A stretch of 64,000 nt of DNA from Spirochaetae bacterium HGW-Spirochaetae-1 (GTDB lineage: Bacteria; Spirochaetota; UBA4802; UBA5550): positions 473,037 to 537,036 of the forward strand of contig PGXY01000002.1 of NCBI GenBank assembly GCA_002839375.1. Reading direction: 5' to 3'. The translations under genes were made by a program, and so were the position numbers. This document shows positions 1,271 to 63,985 of the stretch, one piece after another. The first letter of the stretch is position 1. Each line of letters starts with the position of its first letter. The notes beneath the pieces are model-generated. The model did no database searches. It worked only from the letters and a program-made list of their open reading frames with translations, and was not told where the DNA came from.

Positions 1271-1625
1271 ACCCTGTTTTTTATAATCGATTAAATAATG
1301 CAGCAACTTGATTTCAATCTAAGTTTGTTATAATAGAATTGCATATTACGAATATTCTGTGTCTTTCATTAAAATATAAATAATTTTGAACCGCCCGGCA
1401 AGGTTTATTTGAACAATTTATAAAAAAATGTCGGTTATGCTCTCTAATCGAGTCTTATGTCACGCAATGTTTATGTATATAGTGAACAAAGTTAATTTTA
1501 TTGTAAAGAACAAATCAATCTCTGATTAATCAGGAATTGCACTTGTATTGTTAAGACCTGCATGGTACTTTAAATGCAAACCGTCCGGAAGGACGGATAA
1601 TCACCTTCTTACAGGATATCCGTCA

Positions 1626-7223: not shown

Positions 7224-8015
7224 TCAGAAACGGAGACCGTCCTGGATGGATTCGCGGGATTTATTTATAAGATCCTGTATTGTATTCTCATCGTAGGCAG
7301 ATGTATCGATTGGTTTGTGTATGGTCATTGTTGCATTGCCGGGGAAGAGAGCCATGGAGCTGGCCGGAAGAATGTCCTTGGTGCCGCTGATAGTAACGGG
7401 AAGCACGGGCAATTGCATGTCCAGGGCGAATTTAAATGCACCCTTTTTAAATTCCGTGAGATTGCCCGTTTTACTCCGGGTCCCCTCGGGGAAAAAAATG
7501 ATGGATGTCCCGCCGGTAATTCTTTTTTTTGCCTCGTTGATGGACGCCAGCGCCGATGCGTGATCGGAACGGTTGATAAAGATGTGACCGGCTTTATAGC
7601 AGTAATAGCCCAGGACCGGCGCCTTGCGAAGTTCTACTTTCATGACCCAGCGGAAGTCAAGGGGAAGCCAGCCGTATATGGCGAAAATATCAAACTGGCT
7701 CTGGTGGTTCGCCACAACCACATAGGACTGATTGGGATCAATATTTTCCTCACCTTTAAGGGTCATTCTCATGGGGGTAATAAAACTGTTGAAGCGGGCC
7801 CAGAGGATACCGCTGATCTGGCCGGCTCTCTCTCCAAAGAGCCAGATAATAGGGACGGCCGCTATAGTGAGGATTATGGTGCTGAGTCCCAGTAACGGTA
7901 AAAAAATGAGCCATTTATATATCTGGTAAACGGCAAATAATGCCTTTATTTCACGCAGTTCTTTTCCGGGAATATATAAATTTTCTTTTGCTTTTTCCAA
8001 ATTACCAAATTTCAT
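7224..8015 (-). CDS. plsC: 1-acyl-sn-glycerol-3-phosphate acyltransferase PlsC-like
   Basis: 263 aa with an N-terminal TM segment. Motifs VANHQSQFD (HX4D) and FPEGTRS are present. There is a good RBS (AAAGAGGA) before the ATG at 8015. Confidence 0.8.
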   Translation of the reverse strand: MKFGNLEKAKENLYIPGKELREIKALFAVYQIYKWLIFLPLLGLSTIILTIAAVPIIWLFGERAGQISGILWARFNSFITPMRMTLKGEENIDPNQSYVVVANHQSQFDIFAIYGWLPLDFRWVMKVELRKAPVLGYYCYKAGHIFINRSDHASALASINEAKKRITGGTSIIFFPEGTRSKTGNLTEFKKGAFKFALDMQLPVLPVTISGTKDILPASSMALFPGNATMTIHKPIDTSAYDENTIQDLINKSRESIQDGLRF

Positions 8016-16452: not shown

Positions 16453-17673
16453 TTATTTCTGACCGGAGATTTCCTCGAGTACCGTTTTTACATCACGGGC
16501 AATTTTCAGCTCTTCATTGGTTGGAACGACCAGAACAGTAACACGTGAATCAGCGGAGCTGATTATGCGTATGCCTTTACCGGTATCATTGTTTCTGTCA
16601 TTATCAATATGTATCCCCAGTTCTTCCAGGTTTTCGCAGGCCAGTTTCCGGATCAAGGGTACATTTTCGCCAATTCCTGCCGTAAATATCATAACATCAA
16701 GTCGTCCCAGGGCAGCATAATAGGCCCCGATGTATTTTTTGATCTGATACGTAAGCATTTCCACAGCGAGCCTCGATTTCTCGCACCCCTGTTCCATGTT
16801 TTGCAGAATTTCCCGCATGTCATTTTTTCCACAGATGCCGTAAAGGCCGCTTTTTTTATTCAGCATGGTGTCAATTCTTTCTATGGTGCAGCTGTTATTC
16901 TCGGCGAGAAAAAACGGAACGGCAGGGTCAAGATCTCCGCATCGGGTCCCCATCATTAGACCGGCCAGAGGGGTAAGGCCCATGGTTGTATCAACACATA
17001 TTCCCTGTTTTATGGCAGCCATACTGCTGCCGTTGCCGAGATGGATGGTGATCATGTTGAGCGTTTTTCGGTCCTTGCCGAGATGATCGGCTGCTTCCTG
17101 TGAAACAAAACCGTGTGATGTGCCGTGAAAACCGTATTTACGTATTCTGAAATTTTCATACATTTCAAATGGTATTGCGTACATGTATGAATATGGCTTC
17201 ATAGTCTGGTGAAAGGCCGTATCAAAAACGGCAATATGCTTTGCACCGGAAAATACCATCCTGGCAACTTCGATGCCGGTGAGATTGGCCGGATTATGGA
17301 GAGGGGCAAGGGGAATATTTTTTTTAATAGCGGCGATAATATCATCAGTTATTAATGCAGGGTTATGAAAATCTTCGCCGCCATGGACGACCCGGTGTCC
17401 CACCGCCTCAATTTCATCGCTGGTTTTTACAGAACCGTATTTTGAGTCGGTAAGCAAAGCTGCAATTCTGTTCAGACCGGTCCTGTGATCCGGTACCGGT
17501 TCTGTTTGCGTGAAACTATCGGTTGAGCCGTTTTTATAAACTTTATGATGTATGCTGCTGCCTTCCTGTCCGATCCTCTCTACCAGGCCTTCGGCAAGGA
17601 CTTGAATACCTTTCATGTCGAAGAGTCTATACTTTATTGAAGAGCTTCCGGTGTTTATGACGAGTACTTTCAT
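16453..17673 (-). CDS. ackA: acetate kinase
   Basis: 406 aa. N-terminal MKVLVINTGSSSIKYRLFDM plus ASKHA fold motifs. Confidence 0.9.
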   Translation of the reverse strand: MKVLVINTGSSSIKYRLFDMKGIQVLAEGLVERIGQEGSSIHHKVYKNGSTDSFTQTEPVPDHRTGLNRIAALLTDSKYGSVKTSDEIEAVGHRVVHGGEDFHNPALITDDIIAAIKKNIPLAPLHNPANLTGIEVARMVFSGAKHIAVFDTAFHQTMKPYSYMYAIPFEMYENFRIRKYGFHGTSHGFVSQEAADHLGKDRKTLNMITIHLGNGSSMAAIKQGICVDTTMGLTPLAGLMMGTRCGDLDPAVPFFLAENNSCTIERIDTMLNKKSGLYGICGKNDMREILQNMEQGCEKSRLAVEMLTYQIKKYIGAYYAALGRLDVMIFTAGIGENVPLIRKLACENLEELGIHIDNDRNNDTGKGIRIISSADSRVTVLVVPTNEELKIARDVKTVLEEISGQK

Positions 17674-17681
17674 AGCCTCTC

Positions 17682-19769
17682 CTATTTACCGGCCTGGATA
17701 GCCGTAATGATCACGGTGTTGATAATATCCGGTACTGTACAGCCCCTGCTCAGATCATTTACCGGTTTGTTGAGACCCTGCAGTATAGGACCGATTGCAA
17801 TAGCCCCGGTTTCGCGCTGGACTGCTTTATATGTATTGTTACCCGTATTAAGATCGGGAAATATAAAAACGGTGGCCTGTCCGGCTACTTCTGAATCGGG
17901 CATTTTAGTCGCGGCAACTGTTCTGGATACAGCCGCGTCATACTGTATGGGGCCTTCCATTTTCAGATCAGGGCGTATTTTTTTAGCCAGCACCGTAGCC
18001 TCGCGAACCCTGTCGACATCTTCACCGGTACCGCTGGTGCCTGTTGAGTATGACAGGAGGGCGACCCTGGGTTCAATACCGAAGATCATACCGGTTTCCG
18101 CTGAAGAAACGGCTATATGGGCAAGTTCCTCTGCACTGGGATTGGGGTTTACGGCACAGTCTCCATATACAAGAACCCTGTCTTCGAGGCACATGAGAAA
18201 GACGGAAGAAACAACGGGAACACCTGTTTTTGTTTTTATTATCTGAAGGGCTGGACGTATGGTGGATGCCGTAGAATGAACTGCACCGGAGACCATACCA
18301 TCGGCGTCTCCCAAATGGACCATCATCGTGCCGAAGTAACTTACATCATTCATGGCCGTCACTGCTGCATCCATGGTGAGTCCCTTGTTTTTCCGCAGAT
18401 TATGATAGGTGAGTGCGTAATGTTCCGTAAGTTCCGATGTCTGGGGGTCAATAATTCTCACGTTTTTCATGTCCAGACCCAGTTCTCTTATGCGGGATGA
18501 TATTTTATTTTCATCGCCTAGCAGAGTCAGTGTTACAATATCACGTGCTATGAGTGATTCAGCCGCCATAAGTACCCGATCTTCATTTCCTTCGGGCAGA
18601 ACAATGTGCATCCTTTTTTCCTTGGCTTTCTGGATGAGTCCATACTCGAACATCTTGGGAGTTATGATTTTCGTCGTTGCTTCGATGATTCGTCTGGAGA
18701 GCTCTTCTGAATCAATGTGAGTATCGAAAAGACTGAGGGCGGTCTGGATTTTATGGCTGTTTTCCGGAAGAATATCAGGTTTAAGATTCTCCATGAGAGA
18801 GGCTGTCCTGGTTATGGTCTCCGTCACTACGAGGATGGGAATTTTGAAAGGAAGCCCCTGAATGAGCTGAAGCACCATGTTGTCAATGACGAATTCAACG
18901 GTGAGGATTATGCCCGCCAATTCCGGGAAGTTTACCGATTGATTTACCATCATTGCTCCCAGAATGATGTCAACACGATCACCGGTTGTAATAATTATAG
19001 TCCCGTCTGAAAGGCCCCAGAGGTAATTTTCCAGGTGCATGCCGCCAATGGAGAATCTGTTAACGGGGCGGTTTAGCTGTTCTTCCCCGAAAAGAACAGT
19101 GGCTTTTAGATGTCTGACTATTTCGGCGATTGTGGGTGTATTGATTATGGAGCTTTCAGGCATAACCGCGATAAACTGTTCACTCAGATCGGTCTGTTCC
19201 CTGAGAATTTGACTGTACTGATCACAGCGGTCTTCATGAACGCGCGTAACAATGGTTCCGATTATTCTGCATCGCCTGGCACTGAAGGTTTCCTTAGCTA
19301 TTTTAATAGATTGAAGAATATTGTAAATTTCTTTTCTGTGGGCCGGGGTTATCAGAATAATTGGGCTGGCCAGGACTGAAGCGATGCGTGCATTTAAATC
19401 CATCTCGAAGGAGGAAGTCTCTTCTTTGAAATCAGTGCCATCGCAGAGTACAAAGTCATATCGTTCTTCCAGCTGTTTGTACTTGCGTACTATCCCCTCT
19501 AGGAATTCATCATATCTGCCGGCGGTGACGAGCTTTTCAGCTTCATCAAAGGTAAAAGCAAACATCTGTTCATCGGCAATATCAAGGCTGAAATAATTTT
19601 TTATGAGGGCGAAGTGTTCATGAGGTTTTTGTGAACCTGATATATGGACGATTGGGCGAAAATAGGCAACTTTATCAATTTTTCTCAACAGCAATTCCAT
19701 CAACCCAAGAGTTATTGCCTTTTTCCCGCTTTCCCCTTCCGTTGTTGTAAGATAGAGGTTTTTTGCCAT
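17682..19769 (-). CDS. pta: phosphate acetyltransferase (long form with N-terminal DRTGG/BioD-like domain)
   Basis: 695 aa. The N-terminal is the BioD-like regulatory domain and the C-terminal is the PTA_PTB catalytic domain. It sits immediately upstream of ackA on the same strand. Confidence 0.9.
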   Translation of the reverse strand: MAKNLYLTTTEGESGKKAITLGLMELLLRKIDKVAYFRPIVHISGSQKPHEHFALIKNYFSLDIADEQMFAFTFDEAEKLVTAGRYDEFLEGIVRKYKQLEERYDFVLCDGTDFKEETSSFEMDLNARIASVLASPIILITPAHRKEIYNILQSIKIAKETFSARRCRIIGTIVTRVHEDRCDQYSQILREQTDLSEQFIAVMPESSIINTPTIAEIVRHLKATVLFGEEQLNRPVNRFSIGGMHLENYLWGLSDGTIIITTGDRVDIILGAMMVNQSVNFPELAGIILTVEFVIDNMVLQLIQGLPFKIPILVVTETITRTASLMENLKPDILPENSHKIQTALSLFDTHIDSEELSRRIIEATTKIITPKMFEYGLIQKAKEKRMHIVLPEGNEDRVLMAAESLIARDIVTLTLLGDENKISSRIRELGLDMKNVRIIDPQTSELTEHYALTYHNLRKNKGLTMDAAVTAMNDVSYFGTMMVHLGDADGMVSGAVHSTASTIRPALQIIKTKTGVPVVSSVFLMCLEDRVLVYGDCAVNPNPSAEELAHIAVSSAETGMIFGIEPRVALLSYSTGTSGTGEDVDRVREATVLAKKIRPDLKMEGPIQYDAAVSRTVAATKMPDSEVAGQATVFIFPDLNTGNNTYKAVQRETGAIAIGPILQGLNKPVNDLSRGCTVPDIINTVIITAIQAGK

Positions 19770-28673: not shown

Positions 28674-31634
28674 TTACAGACCGAATTCGGTCCTCTCTAT
28701 CAATTCCATCTGCATTTCCCGGTTAAGCGTTACAAAATATGCGTTATATCCTGAAATGCGAACCAGGAGATTCTGATATTTTTCAGGATTGGCCATGGCG
28801 TCTCTCAGCGTGTCGGAATTAATTACGTTGAACTGCATCTGCATGCCTCCCAGGTCAAAATATGTCCGGACATAGGAGTGCATGGCATTGACGATTTCTT
28901 CACGCGTGTCACGAACGTCGGGAGACAGCTTTACGTTGAAGGCGATATTATTATCCATGCTTCCCGGAATCAGCTGCGCCACGTCATGTATATTATCCAG
29001 AAAATTTTTCGACGCTCCGGGCTGCGGGGTAAGACCCGGTGTAAAAGCCCTGCCGTCGAGACGTCCCGATGGCAGAGTTCCTGAAAGTGTTCCGTATGCC
29101 ACATGCTGAGACATGGACCAGAATCCGGCCGTATAGGGCCCGCCGCGGAAATTGGTGTGTGTACTCCAGGCTTCATGTATGAAGGATGCTATCCGCTGCG
29201 CCATCTCCATGGCTTCCCGGTCTCCTGACCCGAAGAGGGGAACTTTTCGCCGTACAATACTCATGAGGGCTGGATTGCGGGAAAAATCCGAATCTATGGC
29301 TTTCTTCAGTTCCCGGAAAGAAACAGCCTTTTCATCATATATGAGTTTTTTTATTACCATCATGGAATCAGTCACATCGGCAAGTCCGATATTGGATGTA
29401 CCTGAAGAATTATACCGTGCACCTCCCCGGGTAACATCGATACCGTTTTCGATTGCACCGTCAATGAGTGAGCTGAGAAAAGGGGTGGGCCTGAGTACTG
29501 CATGGGCCTGCGCCAGGAGATTATTCAACATGACTGACTGGTCTATGAGAAACCGTTGTTGCTCCGTAAAGGCTCGAAAAAAATCTTCGAAATCAGGAAA
29601 TTGGTCCTTTTCAATGTCCCCCGTTTCAGGTCCAAACTGCTGATTCATGTGGGGATGTCTGCCGTTATTGAGGGCCATTTCCAGTGCCGATACCATGTTC
29701 ATGAGTATGGATCCCGTGTGTCCCATGTGTCGGCCCGAAAGTGTGGGTTCAACGCAGCCCGTGGCCGACCAGTCATGAATATGCCGCTCTTCGTAACCCT
29801 TGTCCGCAAGTGACAGAAAAACGGCGCTGTCATTATGCATGGACGGCGTGGCGGCAGTGGTATAATTAACTTCACAGAGACGTTTCAGATAGGTATCACT
29901 GTTTGTGCCGGGATGAAACCGGGCATTTATATTGGGATCCCGGATGGAAAGCATCTCCGTGGCTTTCAGGAAAATATATGTCATATCATTGACACCATCG
30001 TCTCCACCGGGAGTTATTCCTCCCAGCGTGACGGCCTGATCGGAAGAACTGCCGCCGAAGAGATAGTTGCCGATATCGGGCACCGTGGGAAGATGATCGG
30101 TGCCGCGCATAAGAAGACATCCCGTCAGTTCAATGGCTTTTTTTATATACGATTGTCTTTTTTCCCCTGATGAAATTTCCTGCATATCATTGATGAAATA
30201 AGGATTGAGCCATTGATCGAGGCGTCCCATGGAAAGCCCCGTGTTAGTGTTCTCCATATGCAGGGCAATCCAGACAATCCAGATCACCTGGAAGGCCTCA
30301 TGAAGCGTAGCGGCAGGATTGCGCGGCACCCTGTCACAGATATCGGCTATCTCCACCAGTTCATCACGTCGTGACGTGTCATCTTCCAGGGCAGCTCTGC
30401 GGCGCGCTTCACCGGCCAGATTAGAAGCATATATATTGAGGCCTTCAAGCGTGATTTTCATGGCTGTTAGACTGTTTATTTTGTCCATGTCCGTTTTTCT
30501 GTCCAGAGAACCCAGGCGTTCATCGATTTCCTTGATGATTCCTGTTGTGCCTCTGCCAAGAATGGATGGATAGTCCGGGATGGTGTGGGATATTCCCACG
30601 GATTTCCACACGAAATAATACACCCACCGTTCTTCGATTTTCATACACAGGGGATAATCGTTATTACTTCGAACATATTCCTTGAAGTTACGATGTATCC
30701 AGAAGGGAAAAATATCCCGGTGAAGCGTGAGGGCATCTTCAGGTGATATGCTGTAGGGATTGAGAGTGCGGTGTTCAAGGGAGTTCAGCTCGCCCCATAA
30801 CATGCCGGCATGGGCGTCGGGATAAAGAAGGACGCCTGCCGGTTCTTTCGACGTGGTGGTCCCGGCCAGGATTGATCCTTCCGCTATGACGGGTTTTTTT
30901 TTATCCATGAGGTGCTTGAAGGCCATGGCCTGCCGAAGCACCGGGATCCAGCAATGTTCTTCCTTATCGGTTTCAAATCCATGTTCCCTGAACCATTCTG
31001 TCAGGAGCCTGGGGCGTTCAATGCAAACGACGGGTTTAGCGGTGAAATGTTTTTCCAGCATTCTTTCAAGTCGGGGGAAATCAGCAAGGGTGTATTCACC
31101 CAGGTAGGGATCGTTCAGGTATTTTACGTTACGGTCTATTGAACCGGCCTTCAGGGGATTCCGGCTCCTTTCTTTCATTCTTGAACTGTAATCAGTATTG
31201 GCATGGCCTTTTAGTTGTTTTTTATCTTTGATATATTTTTTATTTTTAACAGTGAGCATTTTGCCATGGACTTTCCCCAGCAGAAGAGAAACGTAATAAT
31301 TGAAAAGTTGCAGGTATGCAATATTGCCGTCGAGAATCATTTTATTATTCAATATCAGGCTGAGCATTTCATTGGGAGTTATAAGAAGCATTTCCCATAA
31401 TGTTTTATTAGTGCTGAACCGGAGAATAACCTCGGCAGCTTCAGGAGTGGTTTTATGAACAAAAACCCGGCCTCCTTTGAACGATATTGCCCTGTCCACG
31501 CTGCCCGTTTCAGTTTTAAAACCGATAGTGAAATTATACCATCCTTCACAGTGTTGAAGATAGGTATTAAATCGCTTGTTTTTATTAAAAACGAAGGCCA
31601 TAGTATACAGTAATAGAAATATTATCATGTTCAT
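28674..31634 (-). CDS. glycyl-radical enzyme, PFL2/dehydratase (single-Cys GCVEP) clade, with about 180-aa N-terminal extension
   Basis: The C-terminal glycyl-radical motif is LVRISGYNAYFVTL and the active-site loop is WSATGCVEPTLSG. The canonical GRE N-terminus begins about residue 185 (FPRLERMLEKH...). The extension opens with a hydrophobic helix, MNMIIFLLLYTMAFVF. There is an RBS (GGAG, 10-nt spacer) before the first ATG. Confidence 0.8.
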   Translation of the reverse strand: MNMIIFLLLYTMAFVFNKNKRFNTYLQHCEGWYNFTIGFKTETGSVDRAISFKGGRVFVHKTTPEAAEVILRFSTNKTLWEMLLITPNEMLSLILNNKMILDGNIAYLQLFNYYVSLLLGKVHGKMLTVKNKKYIKDKKQLKGHANTDYSSRMKERSRNPLKAGSIDRNVKYLNDPYLGEYTLADFPRLERMLEKHFTAKPVVCIERPRLLTEWFREHGFETDKEEHCWIPVLRQAMAFKHLMDKKKPVIAEGSILAGTTTSKEPAGVLLYPDAHAGMLWGELNSLEHRTLNPYSISPEDALTLHRDIFPFWIHRNFKEYVRSNNDYPLCMKIEERWVYYFVWKSVGISHTIPDYPSILGRGTTGIIKEIDERLGSLDRKTDMDKINSLTAMKITLEGLNIYASNLAGEARRRAALEDDTSRRDELVEIADICDRVPRNPAATLHEAFQVIWIVWIALHMENTNTGLSMGRLDQWLNPYFINDMQEISSGEKRQSYIKKAIELTGCLLMRGTDHLPTVPDIGNYLFGGSSSDQAVTLGGITPGGDDGVNDMTYIFLKATEMLSIRDPNINARFHPGTNSDTYLKRLCEVNYTTAATPSMHNDSAVFLSLADKGYEERHIHDWSATGCVEPTLSGRHMGHTGSILMNMVSALEMALNNGRHPHMNQQFGPETGDIEKDQFPDFEDFFRAFTEQQRFLIDQSVMLNNLLAQAHAVLRPTPFLSSLIDGAIENGIDVTRGGARYNSSGTSNIGLADVTDSMMVIKKLIYDEKAVSFRELKKAIDSDFSRNPALMSIVRRKVPLFGSGDREAMEMAQRIASFIHEAWSTHTNFRGGPYTAGFWSMSQHVAYGTLSGTLPSGRLDGRAFTPGLTPQPGASKNFLDNIHDVAQLIPGSMDNNIAFNVKLSPDVRDTREEIVNAMHSYVRTYFDLGGMQMQFNVINSDTLRDAMANPEKYQNLLVRISGYNAYFVTLNREMQMELIERTEFGL

Positions 31635-54676: not shown

Positions 54677-57019
54677 ATGGCAATACGGTCACAGTTTAAA
54701 AAAATATCAATTATCGGTGCCGGATCCTGGGGCACATCAATTGCGTTGACGATCGCCGAAACGTATCCTGATATTACCATATACATGTGGGCATATGAAA
54801 AAAATGTCGTATCTTCCATAAATAGCAGGCATGAGAATATTCAGTTTCTACCCAATGTTATTCTGCCAACCAACATCCGCGCCACGGGAAGCATCAGGGA
54901 AGCCGTATCAGATTCCGATGTCATCCTCATTTCCACGCCGTCAAAGGTAATCCCGGACATTGCTCAGCGGATTCATAAACATCTTGATCCCAAAAGCCAT
55001 GTGGGTTTTCTGACAAAGGGGTTTTGTAAATATCAGGATGAAGTACTGACCATATCACAGACAATCGGAAAAATTATCCCGGAACTGAAGGACCGGGTAG
55101 TCGCCATATACGGACCGAGTCATGCAGAAGAGGTGTCACTGCACTACCATACCTGCCTCAATGTGGCGGGTAAAAACGTTACATCACGGAAGATATTCAT
55201 ACATTTTTTATCGTCGCATTCCATACAGTGCCGGGAAACTGATGATATCATCGGTGTCGAGATGGGAGGTACCTTGAAGAATCCCGCCGCCATCGCGGCC
55301 GGAATGATAAGTGTCCTTCCGAATTGCGGAGATAATCTGTCTGGAGCGCTCATTTCCGAGGCATTAAAAGAGATGCTGAAGATCGGGAGGTTGTTCAATG
55401 TTCGTGACGAGACTATCATTGATATCTCCGGTCTTGGAGACCTGGTCGCCACGGCTCTCAGTGACCACAGCAGGAACCGTCGTTTCGGTAAAGATATCGG
55501 CTTGCAGATCATAGAGAAAGGGAATGCGTTACGTTTCATCGATCGTGTCCTCCTCAGGTTCAAACCACAGTTTGTCCTGGAAAAGATGAGTGAAAATCTT
55601 CACTATCTGGCGGAAGGTGCCTATGCCATTGAACCCCTCATTGAACTGGCAGAAGCAAATGGTATTTCAATACCCGTTTATCGCTCTTTGTACGAGGTGC
55701 TTCTGAACAAGAAAGATCCTTCATTGCTCATCGAGACGATCAAAAATCCCGATAAGTTTGAGGAAATATACCGCCGTACTAAAATCCAGATCAGCGACAA
55801 GAAAAAGGGTCTGGAAAATGTGGGGGGCAGGGCCTTCAGGAGTATCATAGAAGGGAGGGTCCTCTCGTCATTTATTGCAGCCGATGGCAGCTCATCTGAT
55901 ACGCCTATTCCCCTGGAAAGTGTTATCAATAATATCAATGAATTGAGAAACCAGAGTAGCCTTTACGGTTCGAGTGTTGAAGAGAATAAAAGATTAAATG
56001 CCATAACAGACAAAAATTATGAGAAACCCCTGAAGAGACTTATCAATCATTATGTTGATGATGTAGCTGATCTCTACACTGTTTTCTTCAACAGGACTGG
56101 CATGATCATCCTCTCATTTCTGAGAGTGATAAACAGGTTGTCAGGCAATGGAGGAATCCTGGATATTTCTGGCGATGTAGACCAGATCCGTAATTTATCT
56201 GATATGGGAAATCCTCTGTATGTCTGCTCTTATAGTTCTATTTCTGACCTGTTTATCCTGATTTTTTCAATAAAAAAAGCCCGTCTGCCATTCCCCCGAT
56301 TCATGGTAGACAGTGACAAGGTGAAAACATCGCTGGAAAAAATGGCTATCAAGCTCATGGGGGGATTTATCATTGATGCATCAAAAATAAACAATATCGT
56401 GTACCGGGAAGTAGTAAAACAATACCTGTCAACGTTGACCGAAAATGGGGTCCCCTTTCTTTATTTTCCCGAAATTGCCCATAAAACATCAGTTCAGAAC
56501 GCTATAGGAGCTGATTCATTTTATTCTATGATTTCAGATATCATTTTCCGGCACACTGTTGAAATTCTTTTAATACCCATGGAATTGTCATATGCCAGTT
56601 CCATGGATGAATCAATCCTGTCATTGATGGCGCTTAGAAAACATATGAGCCGCAGCGCTATGATCAATTTTTCAGAGCCTGCATTTCTTTCGGAATTTAC
56701 CAAGGAAACCGAATCTATTACCACTTTAGGAGAAAAGGTACAAAAGATATGGAAGCGTGATAAAAAAATATTTCCCCATGTCATGGTATCTAAAATCCTG
56801 CAGGACAATAACTTTGAAATTGAATTGAAACAGCTGGAATCAGCTTCATATAAATATTTCAGAATATTGCAGGTTTCTCCTCCCAGCAAAATGAAAAAGT
56901 TTCTCAATGCCGGGGTAAATTCTCTGAAGAAGGAAAAGACGATTATAAAGGAAAATGGTATGCTGAAAGTCCTGAAAAGGATGGAGGTTGAGAATTACGC
57001 CGCACTCTTGTTAAAGTAA
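54677..57019 (+). CDS. gpsA: fusion: NAD(P)H-dependent glycerol-3-phosphate dehydrogenase (GpsA) + C-terminal PlsB-like acyltransferase domain with HX4D changed to YX4D (probable pseudo-acyltransferase)
   Basis: The N-terminal 340 aa carry IIGAGSWGTSIALTIAE and the GpsA fold. The C-terminal 330 aa align block by block with plsB in this window (VIAPSHKSHMDYL vs YVCSYSSISDLFIL; GAFFMRRSF vs GGFIIDASK; FAEGGRTRSG vs FPEIAHKTSV; ILKQYIKTL vs VVKQYLSTL). Confidence 0.8.
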   Translation: MAIRSQFKKISIIGAGSWGTSIALTIAETYPDITIYMWAYEKNVVSSINSRHENIQFLPNVILPTNIRATGSIREAVSDSDVILISTPSKVIPDIAQRIHKHLDPKSHVGFLTKGFCKYQDEVLTISQTIGKIIPELKDRVVAIYGPSHAEEVSLHYHTCLNVAGKNVTSRKIFIHFLSSHSIQCRETDDIIGVEMGGTLKNPAAIAAGMISVLPNCGDNLSGALISEALKEMLKIGRLFNVRDETIIDISGLGDLVATALSDHSRNRRFGKDIGLQIIEKGNALRFIDRVLLRFKPQFVLEKMSENLHYLAEGAYAIEPLIELAEANGISIPVYRSLYEVLLNKKDPSLLIETIKNPDKFEEIYRRTKIQISDKKKGLENVGGRAFRSIIEGRVLSSFIAADGSSSDTPIPLESVINNINELRNQSSLYGSSVEENKRLNAITDKNYEKPLKRLINHYVDDVADLYTVFFNRTGMIILSFLRVINRLSGNGGILDISGDVDQIRNLSDMGNPLYVCSYSSISDLFILIFSIKKARLPFPRFMVDSDKVKTSLEKMAIKLMGGFIIDASKINNIVYREVVKQYLSTLTENGVPFLYFPEIAHKTSVQNAIGADSFYSMISDIIFRHTVEILLIPMELSYASSMDESILSLMALRKHMSRSAMINFSEPAFLSEFTKETESITTLGEKVQKIWKRDKKIFPHVMVSKILQDNNFEIELKQLESASYKYFRILQVSPPSKMKKFLNAGVNSLKKEKTIIKENGMLKVLKRMEVENYAALLLK

Positions 57020-60427: not shown

Positions 60428-61357
60428 ATGGACACAGTTGGGATAATTATAAACGCTAATGCTAAAAAAAACAGGAAGATGAAAAAGGACCTGGAATCAT
60501 TATACAGGGAAATCGGCGGCCAATATGTCGATGTACAGCTTACGAGCAGCCTTGATCAGCTTAGTGCTGTAATCCGTGATTTTAAAAAGAAAGGTGTATC
60601 CTACCTGGGAGTGGCCGGCGGCGATGGATCACTGCATCATGCCATGACGCGCGCCATGGAAATTTATGGAGAAGGAAATGTGCCGCCTCTGCTGATTCTG
60701 AAGGGAGGGACCATGGACAATGTTTCCAGGTCCATTTTTCTCAAAGGAAAAGGTCCGGAAATATTGAAACGTCTTATAAGCCGGTTGAAGAGGAAAGAGG
60801 CTATTTCACTGCAGACACGAAGTACAATGAAAATTAATGATAGTTACTGTTTTCTTTTCGGAACTGGATTGGTCACTAATTTTCTGAACGAGGTATACGG
60901 TGGCCGGGAAAAAGGCCTGGTCAGGAATCTCCAGGTTATATTTCGTGCCGTGAAGGAAATAGTGAGCAAACCGGCTGGAGCATCCATATTTGACGGGATA
61001 TACGGTGAATTCATTGTCGATGGGGAAAAACTGGATATTACCTATTCATCAGCTATCCTGAGTGGTACCGTTGAACACATCGGTATGGGGTTTTCGCCCC
61101 TGTCGCGTGCCTTGGAAAATCAAAATTCTTATCACGCCATTATCAGCGGTATTCCTCCCACCACATTTCTGAAAAACCTTTATAAGATAAAAAAGGGTAA
61201 AGCGATATGTCACCCGCTGAATTACGATATTTTGCTGAACCGATTGCTTATCAAATGTCCCGGCCCTTTTCAGTATACCATGGATGGAGATATTTATGAA
61301 TCACCGGGAGAATTGGAGGTTGTGCTGGGGCCGCAGGTTAACCTTGTATCGGTATAA
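60428..61357 (+). CDS. diacylglycerol-kinase-catalytic-domain lipid kinase (YegS/BmrU-like)
   Basis: GVAGGDGSLHHAMTRA (GGDG motif). 309 aa. Confidence 0.75.
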   Translation: MDTVGIIINANAKKNRKMKKDLESLYREIGGQYVDVQLTSSLDQLSAVIRDFKKKGVSYLGVAGGDGSLHHAMTRAMEIYGEGNVPPLLILKGGTMDNVSRSIFLKGKGPEILKRLISRLKRKEAISLQTRSTMKINDSYCFLFGTGLVTNFLNEVYGGREKGLVRNLQVIFRAVKEIVSKPAGASIFDGIYGEFIVDGEKLDITYSSAILSGTVEHIGMGFSPLSRALENQNSYHAIISGIPPTTFLKNLYKIKKGKAICHPLNYDILLNRLLIKCPGPFQYTMDGDIYESPGELEVVLGPQVNLVSV

Positions 61358-61381: not shown

Positions 61382-63106
61382 TCAGGAGATGATAATCGTT
61401 GCAAGGAAAATGGCTATGGATAAAAAGAAATTGGCATCGATTATAAATTCATATCTCAGCGTTATCAGATATCTTATTTTAACCAGTCTGTTGATAAGTA
61501 CTGAATAATAGAGAAGGGGGAGTATCATCAGCAAAAAGAGAAATTGTCCTTCCAGGACTACATGGATTATGCACATCAGACTTGTGAGTGCGGTAAGAGT
61601 ATGTGTAATATATTTGGCCGCATCAATTCCGAGCCAGATGGGGATAGTGTCTCTACCCATGATGAAATCACCCTGAAAGGCTATGATGTCGATGAGGATG
61701 TGCCGAACCGTAATCATAGTGATTGTGAAAAGAGAAATAAATAGAATCGATGTCCATGGAACATGTGTATTAATGAGAGGAAGCAGTGTCGTGACAATGA
61801 GCCACCCTAAACCTGTAATTATTTTGGAATTGTAGACTTTGCGAGCCAGGGGAAAGCTAAGCGAGTTCATTATTCTTTTCACAGGAGATGTAAAATAACT
61901 GAATCCGAAGATGTAAGAAAACAGTAATAGAATAATTTGATCTAAACCGGAACTTCTCATCAAGTAGAACGACATGGGAATCGAAACCAGGGAAAAAAAG
62001 ATGAGGGCTTTCCCATATTTCTTATAAATTCCATATTTATATGAGTTGCTTTCCCGCAGGAAGGCCCTGTCAAAATAATTATTGAAAGAATACATGGAAA
62101 ATATATACAGCATGGAGACCACGGGGTAAGTTAACCCATGCTTTGCCGTGATTGCCGATTGAATAAACAGTGTCAGCATAAAAGCGAACAGAGATGAAAT
62201 AATATTTGTCCTTGTTATAAGTTCTATTACATTTTTTATGTGCTTGATGAAGAAATTGCTGTTCCTGAACTTAATATCATAGAGCTTCTCAAGAACGTTG
62301 TTGATAATCCATCCCGGCGTCGATGCCCCTGCTGTAACAAGAACTGATTTTGAATCGGTAAAATCCTTCCACTGAAGTTCCTTTTCAGTCTCCACATGGA
62401 ATGTCAGGAGCCCGTTTTCCCTGCCTATGCCGGCCAGTCTTGATGTATTGGCCGAGTTTTTCCCGCCTACGACAATAAGTGTATCAAATTTTTCCTCTAT
62501 GGCTTTTCGCACGTCATCCTGCCGATGCCGTGTCGAATCGCAGATGGTGTCCATCACCGTGAGATTTTTCAAGGATTTTTGGAGTATCGGAATGATTTTT
62601 TCAAAAAGGTCCCGGTCGAAAGTGGTCTGTGAGACCAGCAAATATTTCTCTGCAGGTGGAATTTCAGCTGCCTCAGTTGCTGATGCTATAATAGTCACAC
62701 CTGCCGATGCATAGCTTTTAAGTCCGATAACCTCGGCGTGATCGCTGTCACCCAGTATGATGGTATAATGTCCCTGTCGGGAATATTTTTTTATCAGGGA
62801 TTGTACATTGGCCACGCGCGGACACGTCAGGTTAATGCACCGTGTGGCCTCACTTTTTAGATAACGGTTATCTTCAATGGGTATTCCATGAGTTCTTACG
62901 GCAACTTGCTTCCCCTTTATTCCCGAGAGATCATGGATTGTCTGCAATCCCCGACGGTGAAGAATATTCACTGTCTGTGGATTATGTATGAGAGGGCCGT
63001 ATACAAAAATCGTTTCGTCGTTATTGTTGAGTTCATTGACGATCCTGAGGATGGCATTTCGAACACCGAAACAGAATCCCGAATGTTGAGCCAATTGTAT
63101 TTTCAT
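61382..63106 (-). CDS. ispH: fusion: IspH/LytB (4-hydroxy-3-methylbut-2-enyl diphosphate reductase) + C-terminal UbiA-superfamily polytopic membrane domain with degenerate Asp-rich motifs
   Basis: The N-terminal 280 aa have the three IspH cysteines (FCFGV, LTCP, ICDST). The C-terminal 290 aa form about 8 TM helices carrying NNYFDRAFLRE (vs UbiA NDYxDRxxD) and QGDFIMGRDTIPIWLG (vs DxxDDxxxGxKST). Confidence 0.8.
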   Translation of the reverse strand: MKIQLAQHSGFCFGVRNAILRIVNELNNNDETIFVYGPLIHNPQTVNILHRRGLQTIHDLSGIKGKQVAVRTHGIPIEDNRYLKSEATRCINLTCPRVANVQSLIKKYSRQGHYTIILGDSDHAEVIGLKSYASAGVTIIASATEAAEIPPAEKYLLVSQTTFDRDLFEKIIPILQKSLKNLTVMDTICDSTRHRQDDVRKAIEEKFDTLIVVGGKNSANTSRLAGIGRENGLLTFHVETEKELQWKDFTDSKSVLVTAGASTPGWIINNVLEKLYDIKFRNSNFFIKHIKNVIELITRTNIISSLFAFMLTLFIQSAITAKHGLTYPVVSMLYIFSMYSFNNYFDRAFLRESNSYKYGIYKKYGKALIFFSLVSIPMSFYLMRSSGLDQIILLLFSYIFGFSYFTSPVKRIMNSLSFPLARKVYNSKIITGLGWLIVTTLLPLINTHVPWTSILFISLFTITMITVRHILIDIIAFQGDFIMGRDTIPIWLGIDAAKYITHTLTALTSLMCIIHVVLEGQFLFLLMILPLLYYSVLINRLVKIRYLITLRYEFIIDANFFLSIAIFLATIIIS

Positions 63107-63112
63107 GGCGGG

Positions 63113-63985
63113 TTAATTCATTTTCATATTAAGAACATCTTCCTGGTCTTCCGGCTCATCAGGCTGTCCGAATTTTAAATTCAGCGGATCCCTTTTATCC
63201 ATGGGGGATTCGCCCCTCATATCCGCTGATTCCCCCTTCATGCTCGCCCTGGGCCTGGAAAAGGTCCCTTTGAGTGGTATGGTGATTTTACCTTTATTGT
63301 CTATAAAGGATGAAAGCAGAGGCTTGAATTCGGCGAACACTGTTGACTCGGGATCAAGTGATATGGAGAGGTCCAGTTTCGAATTTGGAAAAATTGGGGC
63401 CATAATTATATTACCGGAAATGGTCCCGCGGATGTCTGTTCCCGATATAAGAAACTGTTTTATTATCATCTTGTTGTTGGCAATTTCAGTATCGATCTGA
63501 ATAGAAGATATTTTGATAATAGGAGGCAGGGATATTCCTCCCATGCTGTCGGGGAGAGTCATATTTTCAAACTTGCAAAGGACGTTTTCCGTCATTAATT
63601 TGATAGTGCCGTCCGAGATAGAACCGGATTTGGGGTTAAAGGATACATCAATATTCCCGTTAATATTTCCGTCAATGCTCATCTGTAGAGAGGAATACTT
63701 AATACTGCTGATCTGAAGGTCGCCTTTGAAGGTATTGCTGAAGAGAAGGGAATAGGGGTTCAATGAGAGATTGGCAAGGATCTGCTTAATCGACAATTCA
63801 CTGCCGTTTTTAAAAGTAATATAAATATTCTCAAAAAAGGAGTCACCGATAAAACTGATGTCCATATCCTGAATAAAAATATTCTGGAAGGCTTTTTTTT
63901 CAAGTTTCTGCAGGTGCTGACGAATAATCATGTCATAGGGAAAAGTAAATATGAAAAAAATAAATGTCACAACTACAGACAGCAT
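63113..63985 (-). CDS. hypothetical membrane-anchored protein (290 aa), beta-rich, acidic C-terminus
   Basis: N-terminal TM helix (LSVVVTFIFFIFTF). It is S/I/N-rich, consistent with an extended beta structure. It sits immediately upstream of the ispH fusion on the same strand. Confidence 0.45.
   Translation of the reverse strand: MLSVVVTFIFFIFTFPYDMIIRQHLQKLEKKAFQNIFIQDMDISFIGDSFFENIYITFKNGSELSIKQILANLSLNPYSLLFSNTFKGDLQISSIKYSSLQMSIDGNINGNIDVSFNPKSGSISDGTIKLMTENVLCKFENMTLPDSMGGISLPPIIKISSIQIDTEIANNKMIIKQFLISGTDIRGTISGNIIMAPIFPNSKLDLSISLDPESTVFAEFKPLLSSFIDNKGKITIPLKGTFSRPRASMKGESADMRGESPMDKRDPLNLKFGQPDEPEDQEDVLNMKMN

What the first reader, a model, noticed from the sequence alone, without database searches (positions are those of the whole stretch)
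61382..63106. IspH (LytB) fused to a UbiA-superfamily membrane domain with degenerate Asp-rich motifs
A complete IspH, with all three cluster-ligand cysteines, continues without a stop into about 290 aa of polytopic membrane protein. Its motifs NNYFDRAFL and QGDFIMGRDTIPIWLG align with the two Asp-rich motifs of UbiA/MenA-type prenyltransferases, but with most Mg-binding aspartates replaced (NDxxDxxxD becomes NNxxDxxxL; DxxDD becomes xQGDF). One possibility is a membrane anchor and pseudo-prenyltransferase that tethers the last MEP-pathway enzyme to the membrane. Another is a divergent prenyltransferase that receives DMAPP/IPP directly from IspH. Either would be an unreported architecture for this essential isoprenoid step.
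Basis: seen in the sequence. Interest (0 to 1): 0.65.

Follow-up and report, generated by a model that had tools for sequence, protein, structure and literature searches.

The report
Membrane-anchored IspH–UbiA fusion enzyme
This gene really does encode the last enzyme of the MEP isoprenoid pathway (IspH) fused to a UbiA-type membrane prenyltransferase-like domain, but the fusion was described in 2015 and is common, so this is a new spirochaete member of a known family whose function is still unknown.

Summary

The claim of an "unreported architecture" is wrong. Rao et al. 2015 (Chem Sci, PMC4746011) described 47 IspH-UbiA "Rosetta stone" fusions in sulfate reducers. An exhaustive search here finds 229 clusters of relatives, spread over several phyla.

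The "degenerate motifs" reading is only half right. Motif 1 is reduced to N342-N-x-x-D346-x-x-x-L350, and this holds across the family. It is D473-x-x-A476-x-x-x-D480, the same pattern that chlorophyll synthase has. By motif register, three of the four direct Mg2+ ligands defined in AfUbiA survive. The substituted positions are themselves conserved in the clade, which argues against a decaying pseudo-enzyme.

What is new is modest. This copy belongs to a subclade of uncultured Spirochaetota/Leptospirales with its own motif signature. It most likely acts as the cell's IspH, tethered to the cytoplasmic face of the membrane by a domain that still binds ligand and probably still catalyses. Its acceptor substrate is unknown.

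The parts
61382..63106 (-). Complete ispH-ubiA fusion ORF: 574 aa plus the stop codon at 61382-61384.
   Evidence: ORF list. The exact protein is NCBI PKL40868.1 and is on 6 independent contigs. AF2 model of the full length: pLDDT 95.6, pTM 0.93.
62264..63106 (-). IspH (HMBPP reductase) domain, residues 1-281.
   Evidence: Pfam LYTB 1.3e-79. TIGR00216 scores 255 bits, above its cutoff. phmmer to A. aeolicus IspH 3dnf gives 1.9e-54. Foldseek TMt 0.85. Catalytic residues are invariant in 57/57 and about 80/80 relatives.
63071..63073 (-). Cys12, first [4Fe-4S] ligand.
   Evidence: Aligned to GFCxGV of the A. aeolicus and E. coli IspH structures. 57/57 in the clade. Codon verified.
62822..62824 (-). 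Cys95, second [4Fe-4S] ligand.
   Evidence: Aligned to TCPxV of the IspH structures. 80/80 and 57/57. Codon verified.
62540..62542 (-). Cys189, third [4Fe-4S] ligand.
   Evidence: Aligned to ICxxT of the IspH structures. 80/80 and 57/57. Codon verified.
62204..62263 (-). Linker and amphipathic pre-TM1 helix, residues 282-301. It includes the conserved R299 and N301. R299 is the proposed counterpart of AfUbiA R22, which binds the diphosphate.
   Evidence: AF2 helix H285-299. R17 and N19 of the C-domain numbering are invariant in alignment A2. The match to AfUbiA R22 is inferred from position only.
61385..62203 (-). UbiA-superfamily (PT_UbiA_5-type) membrane domain, residues 302-574, with 9 transmembrane helices.
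62057..62083 (-). Reduced first Asp-rich motif, N342-N-Y-F-D346-R-A-F-L350 (canonical form NDxxDxxxD).
   Evidence: Register from HMMER against ChlG. In the clade N342 and N343 are 57/57, L350 is 52/57, and position 346 is D or E in 43/57. In the family N342 is 69/80, and position 343 is R, N or H.
61823..61834 (-). Conserved Y425-N-S-K428 in the cytoplasmic loop between TM4 and TM5. Y404 (61895-61897) lies on TM4.
   Evidence: K428 is K52/R5 of 57, and Y404 is 57/57. In the family S427 is 72/80 and K428 is 70/80. The link to the AfUbiA Y139/K146 region is an inference.
61640..61690 (-). Second Asp-rich motif and following loop, D473-I-I-A476-F-Q-G-D480-F-I-M-G-R-D-T-I-P.
   Evidence: HMMER alignment to DGGGPS 'DFEDMEGDKKEGVISLP' and ChlG 'DFKSVEGDRQLGLKSLP'. 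D473 is 57/57, D480 is 57/57 in the clade and 80/80 in the family, and A476 is 47/57 in the clade against D in 51/80 family-wide.

Best explanation
This gene is a member of the IspH-UbiA fusion family that was published in 2015. It comes from an uncultured Spirochaetota bacterium.

Shown:
- The N-terminal 281 residues are a complete IspH, with every cluster ligand and substrate-binding residue conserved.
- The C-terminal 273 residues fold as a 9-helix UbiA-type intramembrane prenyltransferase.
- The domain's N-terminus lies on the cytoplasmic side, as do its active-site loops HL2-3, HL4-5 and HL6-7. IspH is therefore held at the inner face of the membrane, packed rigidly against the cytoplasmic cap of the UbiA domain.
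- The two halves have diverged together, as a single unit.

Inferred:
- The IspH half acts as the cell's HMBPP reductase and makes IPP and DMAPP.
- The UbiA half is not a passive anchor. It keeps a diphosphate/Mg2+ site made of R299, N342, D346, Y404, K428, R468, D473 and D480.
- It most likely binds a prenyl diphosphate made from IspH's products and transfers the prenyl group to a membrane acceptor that is still unidentified. The chemistry would be DGGGP-synthase-like or chlorophyll-synthase-like.
- The fusion places the final step of C5 supply next to a membrane consumer.
For: Intact IspH:
- Family and structure matches.
- Catalytic residues are invariant in 80 full-length relatives and in 57 Spirochaetota copies.

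UbiA fold and homology.

Real, ancient fusion:
- The same protein is on 6 independent contigs.
- 60 of 64 genome loci are fused in-frame.
- All 79 full-length hits among the top 150 of 229 clusters carry IspH.
- Pairwise identities of the N and C halves correlate at r=0.76.

Fixed domain arrangement: AF2 pTM 0.93.

Topology: K+R count is 14 on the cytoplasmic side against 2 on the periplasmic side.

Retained active site:
- N342, Y404, R468, D473, D480 and G484 are 57/57. D480 is 80/80 across sequences only 20-40% identical.
- AfUbiA's direct Mg ligands are N68, D72, D198 and D202, and D76 is not a direct ligand (PMC4106721). By motif register this protein keeps three of the four.
- Chlorophyll synthase shares the D-x6-D form of motif 2.

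Housekeeping behaviour:
- Neighbouring genes differ between phyla.
- No other IspH is present in the window or in 1.07 Mb of related loci.

Prior proposal of the same idea: Rao et al. 2015.
Against: - No activity has ever been shown for any IspH-UbiA protein. Rao et al. could not express a full-length one.
- Motif 1 has lost two of its three Asp across the whole family. In this clade even position 346 is not acidic in 14 of 57 sequences, so the first Mg site may be altered or absent.
- In AfUbiA, N68A and D72A abolish GPP binding.
- This copy scores below the Pfam UbiA gathering threshold.
- A channelling rationale is weak if the donor is a long-chain prenyl diphosphate, because soluble chain-elongation enzymes act between IspH and that donor.
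- No acceptor-pathway gene is consistently linked to the fusion.
- Whether the genome has a second, stand-alone ispH could not be checked.
Confidence: 0.5

Rival explanations
1. Sensor or regulator model. The UbiA-like domain no longer catalyses prenyl transfer. Instead it binds a pathway end-product or intermediate, such as a polyprenyl diphosphate or phosphate. In this way it regulates or positions the attached IspH. This would resemble human UBIAD1, which binds HMG-CoA reductase and responds to GGPP.
For: - Motif 1 is reduced across the family: positions 343 and 350 are never Asp in the clade, and position 346 is variable.
- The ligand-binding residues are nevertheless conserved.
- The model predicts a rigid interface between the domains (pTM 0.93).
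- UBIAD1 in complex with HMGCR is among the structural neighbours (8djk and 8djm).
- No acceptor-pathway genes are linked to the fusion.
- The UBIAD1-HMGCR regulatory role is taken from general knowledge, not from a tool result.
Against: - Three of the four direct Mg ligands, together with Y404, are retained. Y404 is the proposed equivalent of the catalytic Tyr near the scissile C-O bond.
- Most family members outside this clade have a fully canonical DxxDxxxD second motif.
- No regulatory precedent of this kind exists in bacteria.
Confidence: 0.25
2. Pure membrane-anchor model. The C-domain is a relic whose only role is to tether IspH to the membrane, for example close to an electron donor or to downstream membrane enzymes.
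For: - This copy scores below the Pfam UbiA threshold.
- The Asp-rich motifs are reduced.
- Rao et al. raised localisation as one option.
Against: - A simple anchor would not keep polar and charged residues inside the membrane domain invariant. D480 is 80/80. D473, R468, N342 and Y404 are 57/57. This holds at 24-36% overall identity.
Confidence: 0.1
3. Direct C5 prenyltransferase model. The UbiA domain takes DMAPP straight from the fused IspH and dimethylallylates a membrane acceptor. This would be true substrate channelling.
For: - The fusion itself, and the rigid packing of the two domains.
- AfUbiA, one of the closest structural neighbours, has been crystallised with DMAPP bound (4tq4).
- A modified motif 1 could reflect an unusual donor.
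Against: - No evidence is available on the size of the binding pocket, because model coordinates could not be inspected.
- The nearest sequence families (DGGGP synthase, ChlG, MenA) all use donors of C20 or longer.
- No known bacterial membrane lipid needs such a reaction.
Confidence: 0.1
4. Assembly or annotation artefact. Two adjacent genes, ispH and a ubiA-like gene, were joined by a frameshift error.
For: None found.
Against: - The identical 574-aa protein is present in independent JGI, ENA, Logan and NCBI assemblies.
- 60 of 64 related genomes have the same in-frame fusion.
- All 79 full-length representatives among the top 150 hits, out of 229 clusters, carry both halves.
Confidence: 0.01

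Closest known systems
IspH-UbiA 'Rosetta stone' fusion proteins (Rao, O'Dowd, Li, Wang & Oldfield 2015, Chem Sci 6:6813; UbiA part classed as CDD PT_UbiA_5)
   Same: - Same architecture: IspH at the N-terminus, a UbiA-like domain of about 9 transmembrane helices at the C-terminus, about 575 aa in total.
- Same family by sequence. The window's C-domain retrieves about 575-aa fusions from Thermodesulfobacteriota and 'Deltaproteobacteria' MAGs.
- Function is unknown in both cases.
   Different: - The published set was described as occurring only in sulfate-reducing bacteria, mainly Desulfobacterales.
- This copy belongs to a coherent subclade of uncultured Spirochaetota/Leptospirales: 62 of the 64 GTDB-species loci are labelled spirochaete.
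- The subclade has its own signature, N342-N343...L350 and D473..A476..D480. Most other members have D476.
- The paper states that 'two DXXXD repeats' are present. Here only the second motif is canonical across the family.
Archaeal digeranylgeranylglyceryl phosphate synthase (DGGGPS; PDB 6m31, NCBIfam PRK12882) and related archaeal UbiA prenyltransferases (PRK13591, PRK12872)
   Same: - It is the best sequence-profile match among solved structures (E=1.9e-6).
- These are the best-matching curated families.
- It shares the motif 2 form DxxDxxxD-x3-G-x3-LP.
   Different: - All scores lie far below the curated cutoffs, for example 21-24 bits against 288-296.
- Motif 1 lacks two of its three Asp.
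- The protein is fused to IspH.
- It is bacterial, and no GGGP synthase is evident nearby.
Chlorophyll / bacteriochlorophyll synthase (ChlG/BchG; PDB 9sau)
   Same: - It has the same D-x-x-(non-Asp)-x-x-x-D version of motif 2, followed by G-x3-(S/T)-L-P.
- It gives weak profile hits.
   Different: - ChlG keeps a full NDxxDxxxD motif 1.
- There is no sign of tetrapyrrole-related gene context here.
- Scores lie far below the cutoffs.
AfUbiA and ApUbiA (PDB 4tq3, 4od4), archaeal UbiA homologues with solved structures
   Same: - By motif register, the equivalents of N68, D72 and D202 are conserved, and possibly those of R22 and Y139 as well.
   Different: - Sequence identity is about 12-16%.
- The D198 equivalent is Ala and the D76 equivalent is Leu.
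- Neither archaeal protein is fused to another enzyme.
IspH-RPS1 fusions of Clostridia and Fusobacteria (NCBIfam NF000907)
   Same: IspH at the N-terminus with a C-terminal extension. The IspH half scores 8.2e-83 against that model over positions 1-281.
   Different: The C-terminal partner in those proteins is soluble ribosomal protein S1 repeats, not a membrane domain. The total score of 279 bits is well below the cutoff of 624.
Human UBIAD1-HMG-CoA reductase complex (PDB 8djk, 8djm)
   Different: That system is a non-covalent complex in the eukaryotic mevalonate pathway, and UBIAD1 is itself an active prenyltransferase. The resemblance is an analogy only.

Membership tests
IspH / LytB (HMBPP reductase, TIGR00216 / PF02401) | Whole-domain match above the curated threshold. 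| tested here: met
   TIGR00216 scores 255.3 bits against a cutoff of 187.85. PF02401 scores 267.7 bits against 24.5.
IspH / LytB (HMBPP reductase, TIGR00216 / PF02401) | Three conserved Cys that ligate the [4Fe-4S] cluster (E. coli C12, C96, C197). | tested here: met
   C12, C95 and C189 align to these cysteines in 3dnf and E. coli IspH. They are invariant in relatives.
IspH / LytB (HMBPP reductase, TIGR00216 / PF02401) | Substrate-binding and proton-relay residues (E. coli H41, H74, H124, E126, T167, S225, N227, S269). | tested here: met
   H41, H73, H123, E125, T161/T162, S218, N220 and S262 are present. They are 57/57 in the clade and about 80/80 in the family.
IspH / LytB (HMBPP reductase, TIGR00216 / PF02401) | Trefoil alpha/beta fold. 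| tested here: met
   Foldseek TMt 0.84-0.85 and rmsd 1.9-3.0 A to 3dnf and 3ke8.
IspH / LytB (HMBPP reductase, TIGR00216 / PF02401) | HMBPP reductase activity. | not testable with these tools
   This needs an enzyme assay or complementation of an ispH mutant.
UbiA prenyltransferase superfamily (PF01040) | Pfam match at or above the gathering score. | tested here: not met
   This copy scores 24.0-24.9 bits against 34.2. However, 23 of 26 family members match at E<=0.01, with a best value of 6.4e-19, so homology of the family to UbiA is established.
UbiA prenyltransferase superfamily (PF01040) | UbiA fold of 8-9 transmembrane helices with cytoplasmic cap helices. | tested here: met
   [not shown]
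UbiA prenyltransferase superfamily (PF01040) | First Asp-rich motif NDxxDxxxD. | tested here: not met
   The motif reads N342-N-Y-F-D346-R-A-F-L350. Only the N and the central D are kept. The same reduction is seen across the family.
UbiA prenyltransferase superfamily (PF01040) | Second Asp-rich motif DxxxD (extended form DxxDxxxD). | tested here: inconclusive
   The motif reads D473-x-x-A476-x-x-x-D480. The strict DxxxD pair is broken in this clade. D473 and D480 are invariant, and ChlG has the same pattern. Across the family D476 is present in 51/80.
UbiA prenyltransferase superfamily (PF01040) | Mg2+-dependent prenyl transfer. | not testable with these tools
   No biochemical data exist for any member. 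Expression failed in Rao et al. 2015.
IspH-UbiA fusion family (Rao et al. 2015) | IspH at the N-terminus fused in-frame to a C-terminal UbiA-like membrane domain. | tested here: met
IspH-UbiA fusion family (Rao et al. 2015) | The C-domain is homologous to the C-domains of other IspH-UbiA fusions, not to some other UbiA lineage. | tested here: met
   An exhaustive phmmer search with the C-domain returns 229 clusters. All 79 full-length hits among the top 150 carry IspH. They include Thermodesulfobacteriota and 'Deltaproteobacteria' entries. Direct comparison with the named species in the paper (Desulfobacula toluolica and others) was not possible.
IspH-UbiA fusion family (Rao et al. 2015) | Occurrence in sulfate-reducing Desulfobacterales, as the paper describes. 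| tested here: not met
   The host is a Spirochaetota MAG (PKL40868.1), and the subclade is almost entirely Spirochaetota/Leptospirales. This is a statement about taxonomic range, not a structural criterion.
DGGGP synthase (NCBIfam PRK12882/PRK12883) | Equivalog-level score. | tested here: not met
   It scores 18-21 bits against cutoffs of 296-353.

The most novel reading that the evidence does not exclude
In this Spirochaetota subclade the UbiA-like domain has a remodelled metal/diphosphate site (N343, L350 and A476 fixed in place of Asp). It may have taken on a non-canonical role. One possibility is a prenyl-diphosphate sensor that gates the attached IspH, a bacterial MEP-pathway counterpart of UBIAD1-HMGCR. 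Another is a transferase that consumes DMAPP directly from IspH to make an undescribed membrane isoprenoid.
Probability: 0.15. Interest if true: 0.65.

Novelty: new member of a known kind. Interest (0 to 1): 0.3.

Why it matters
IspH is an essential enzyme and a drug target. A whole family of bacteria, now seen to span several phyla, has welded it to a membrane prenyltransferase-like domain. Eleven years after the first report, nobody knows what that domain does.

This analysis adds the following:
- The fusion is much more widespread than the 47 sequences first reported, and it is not restricted to sulfate reducers.
- The two halves evolve as one unit and are predicted to pack rigidly against each other.
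- Motif 1 is reduced across the whole family, while motif 2 and other active-site residues are strictly kept.

These points narrow the hypotheses towards a live ligand-binding site. They also identify specific residues to mutate: N342, D346, Y404, K428, R468, D473 and D480. None of this changes the basic picture already in the literature.

Tried and rejected
- Frameshift or assembly artefact. Rejected, because the identical protein is in independent assemblies and 60 of 64 loci are fused in-frame.
- Single-sequence search of the C-domain against PDB found nothing. The family profile was needed.
- The first genome-contig scan, using peptides from the window protein alone, found nothing. An alignment of 26 diverse C-domains was too divergent for the tool. 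A 7-sequence subclade alignment worked.
- The AFDB50 fold library was unavailable, so UniProt-level taxonomy of the architecture could not be listed.
- Looked for a conserved functional partner gene:
  - In the Spirochaetota clade, the upstream T2SS-operon tail gene and the downstream aroE/folC are syntenic. This looks like backbone synteny, not a functional link.
  - A DAGK_cat kinase lies next door in only 21 of 64 loci.
  - In other phyla the neighbours differ: O-methyltransferase, RecQ/MGMT, proA/proB, epimerase.
  - No partner emerged.
- Looked for a second ispH, or other isoprenoid genes, in the window and in 1.07 Mb of related loci. None was found, but whole genomes could not be scanned.
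- Tried to align AfUbiA and ApUbiA to the family by sequence so that residues could be mapped directly. There was no hit, so the mapping rests on motif register plus the HMMER alignments to DGGGPS and ChlG.
- Rfam scan of the window found no hits.
Full report
**1. The observation**

Window 61382..63106 (minus strand) is a single ATG-initiated ORF of 574 codons.
- Residues 3-275 match Pfam LYTB at E=1.3e-79. The protein passes the curated NCBIfam IspH equivalog TIGR00216 (255 bits against 187.85).
- Aligned to the solved IspH structures from A. aeolicus (E=1.9e-54) and E. coli (E=3.8e-33), C12, C95 and C189 fall on the three [4Fe-4S] cysteines. The residues H41, H73, H123, E125, T161/T162, S218, N220 and S262 fall on the known substrate-binding and proton-relay residues.
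- The reading frame continues without a stop codon into a hydrophobic C-terminal half (residues about 282-574). This half gives only a sub-threshold Pfam UbiA hit (24 bits against a gathering score of 34.2), plus weak hits to archaeal DGGGP synthase and chlorophyll synthase models.

**2. Is it an artefact?**

No.
- The identical 574-aa protein has been called on six contigs of 50-644 kb from independent JGI, ENA, Logan and NCBI assemblies. It is GenBank PKL40868.1, from a 'Spirochaetae bacterium' MAG, and is annotated simply as IspH.
- A scan of one genome per GTDB species, using a subclade alignment, returned 64 loci. In 60 of them an IspH domain is fused in-frame to the membrane domain. Three are cut by a contig end and one is a fragment.

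**3. How common is it?**

An exhaustive phmmer search of 1.84 billion cluster representatives with the C-domain alone found:
- 229 clusters at E<=1e-3, and 63 at E<=1e-10.
- Of the best 150 hits, 79 are full-length (540-660 aa). Every one of these has an IspH N-domain.
- Most shorter hits are fragments. A handful may be stand-alone proteins.

Named members come from Spirochaetota, Thermodesulfobacteriota, 'Deltaproteobacteria', Nitrospinota and Candidatus Auribacterota MAGs.

Pairwise identities of the N and C halves correlate at r=0.76 across 136 fusions. The subclade that contains the window protein is coherent in both halves. The fusion is therefore old and is inherited as a unit.

**4. Is the C-domain a UbiA-fold protein?**

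Yes.
- 23 of 26 diverse family members match Pfam UbiA (best E=6.4e-19).
- A family profile hits M. jannaschii DGGGP synthase (6m31, E=1.9e-6) and chlorophyll synthase (9sau, E=2.3e-3).
- AlphaFold2 with a 77-sequence alignment gives a very confident full-length model (pLDDT 95.6, pTM 0.93). The C-domain modelled alone gives pLDDT 93.
- Foldseek matches the N-half to IspH (TMt 0.85) and the C-half to AfUbiA (E=9e-6), DGGGPS, ApUbiA and UBIAD1.
- The model has nine transmembrane helices.
- Loops on the predicted cytoplasmic side carry 14 Lys+Arg, against 2 on the other side. This puts the domain's N-terminus, and therefore IspH, in the cytoplasm, together with the active-site loops.
- The high pTM implies a fixed packing of IspH on the cytoplasmic cap. 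Coordinates could not be inspected.

**5. The motifs**

- NDxxDxxxD has become N342-N343-Y-F-D346-R-A-F-L350.
- The reduction is shared by the whole family. Position 343 is R, N or H. Position 350 is L, A or G. Position 346 is D or E in 55 of 80 sequences.

- The true register is DxxDxxxD, which here reads D473-I-I-A476-F-Q-G-D480 followed by x3-G-R-D-T-I-P.
- HMMER aligns this to DGGGPS 'DFEDMEGDKKEGVISLP' and to ChlG 'DFKSVEGDRQLGLKSLP'.
- Across the family the motif is canonical: D473 70/80, D476 51/80, D480 80/80.
- In the Spirochaetota clade the middle Asp is Ala (47/57). ChlG likewise has Ser at that position.

*Comparison with AfUbiA.* According to the AfUbiA structure paper (PMC4106721):
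- The direct Mg2+ ligands are N68 and D72 in motif 1, and D198 and D202 in motif 2.
- D76 is too far away for direct contact.
- R22, K146 and Y139 complete the site.

By motif register these map to N342, D346, A476, D480 and L350. R299 and Y404 are plausible counterparts of R22 and Y139.

So three of the four direct ligands are present in the window protein.

*Conservation within the clade (57 sequences).*
- N342, N343, G401, Y404, W435, R468, D473, D480, G484 and G493 are invariant.
- L350 is 52/57 and A476 is 47/57.

The 'lost' positions are therefore fixed, not drifting. This is what a remodelled site under selection looks like, not a decaying one.

**6. Context**

- The gene starts 6 nt after the stop codon of the last gene of a type II secretion operon (gspD...M plus an unannotated 290/324-aa gene).
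- It converges on a DAGK_cat lipid kinase 24 nt from its stop codon.
- In the clade the T2SS tail gene lies upstream in 53 of the 64 loci. Downstream, aroE is present in 28 loci and folC in 38, and the kinase is present in 21 loci.
- In distant members the neighbours are unrelated: an O-methyltransferase, RecQ/MGMT, proB/proA, an epimerase.
- No isoprenoid gene or second ispH is present in the window or in 1.07 Mb of related loci.

The gene behaves like a housekeeping ispH. Whether it is the only ispH in its genome could not be tested.

**7. What is known**

The architecture is not unreported.
- Rao, O'Dowd, Li, Wang and Oldfield (Chem Sci 2015, PMC4746011) found 47 IspH-UbiA fusions through a sequence similarity network, 'all in sulfate-reducing bacteria'.
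- They classed the UbiA part as CDD PT_UbiA_5 of unknown function and modelled Desulfobacula toluolica IspH-UbiA on ApUbiA.
- They proposed that the UbiA domain localises IspH to the membrane and benefits from locally high IPP/DMAPP.
- They failed to express a full-length protein.
- No later study of the fusion is present in the searchable library.

**8. Interpretation**

- *Best supported (about 0.5).* An active IspH is held at the inner membrane face by a UbiA-type domain that still binds ligand and probably still catalyses. Its acceptor is unknown.
- *Main rival (about 0.25).* A non-catalytic sensor or regulator, analogous to UBIAD1-HMGCR.
- *Less likely (about 0.1 each).* A pure anchor, which is disfavoured by the invariant intramembrane polar residues, and a direct DMAPP-channelling transferase.
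- *Excluded.* An assembly artefact.

**9. Verdict**

This is a real and correctly described gene, but it is a new member of a published family. It represents a Spirochaetota subclade with a distinctive motif signature.

The new information is the wider taxonomic range, the finding that motif 1 is reduced across the family, and the confident rigid two-domain model. Interest is moderate to low, at 0.3.

Noticed in passing
window 54677..57019 (+): A 780-aa protein. Residues 9-352 are GpsA (NAD-dependent glycerol-3-phosphate dehydrogenase). About 430 further residues follow, with a weak, sub-threshold Acyltransferase (PF01553) hit at residues 502-599. It is conserved at 44-52% identity across most of its length in most of the related Spirochaetota loci. 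It may be a second 'pathway fusion' that joins G3P synthesis to acylation.
   Followed up: partly
window 63113..63985 (-), continuing beyond the window end; L001 9020..9994: An unannotated gene with no Pfam hit: 290 aa in the window's ORF list, called as 324 aa on the contigs. It follows T2SSM as the last gene of a gspD-to-M type II secretion operon and ends 6 nt before the ispH-ubiA start codon. It lies upstream of the fusion in 53 of the 64 Spirochaetota loci. It may be a GspN-like component, and ispH-ubiA may be co-transcribed with the T2SS operon.
   Followed up: partly
window 60428..61357 (+): A DAGK_cat family lipid kinase (309 aa). It converges on ispH-ubiA, with 24 nt between the two stop codons. 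The same arrangement occurs in 21 of 64 related loci. Its lipid substrate is unknown, and a link to an isoprenoid alcohol or lipid is pure speculation.
   Followed up: partly
window 1548..3773 (+): A full-length neutral/alkaline ceramidase (PF04734 at 1.6e-158, plus the C-terminal domain) in a spirochaete MAG. A PlsB-type GPAT (4441..7182) and another acyltransferase (7224..8015) lie next to it. This hints at sphingolipid turnover in this lineage.
   Followed up: no
window 28674..31634 (-): A 986-aa glycyl-radical enzyme (PFL-like plus Gly_radical domains) with an N-terminal extension of about 187 aa. Pta (17682..19769) and AckA (16453..17673) are also present. Together these fit a fermentative, anaerobic lifestyle.
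   Followed up: no
L061 and L065 (contigs CAWAOG010000033.1 and CAWAOG010000008.1): One MAG labelled 'uncultured delta proteobacterium MFD02979.bin.1.23' carries two separate IspH-UbiA fusion loci. Each N-domain is 55% identical to the window's. This is either paralogous duplication of the fusion or mixed binning.
   Followed up: no
L067 9754..10758: In one distant member (P0049, GCA_029261405.1) the fusion is followed, 4 nt later, by a family-2 O-methyltransferase (PF00891). This might act on the unknown prenylated product. The arrangement was not seen in the other contexts examined.
   Followed up: no
P0082, P0143, P0098, P0054: A few hits of 280-310 aa begin with Met directly at TM1 and have no IspH remnant. 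They may be genuine stand-alone PT_UbiA_5 proteins. Their genomic contexts might reveal the domain's function but were not examined.
   Followed up: no
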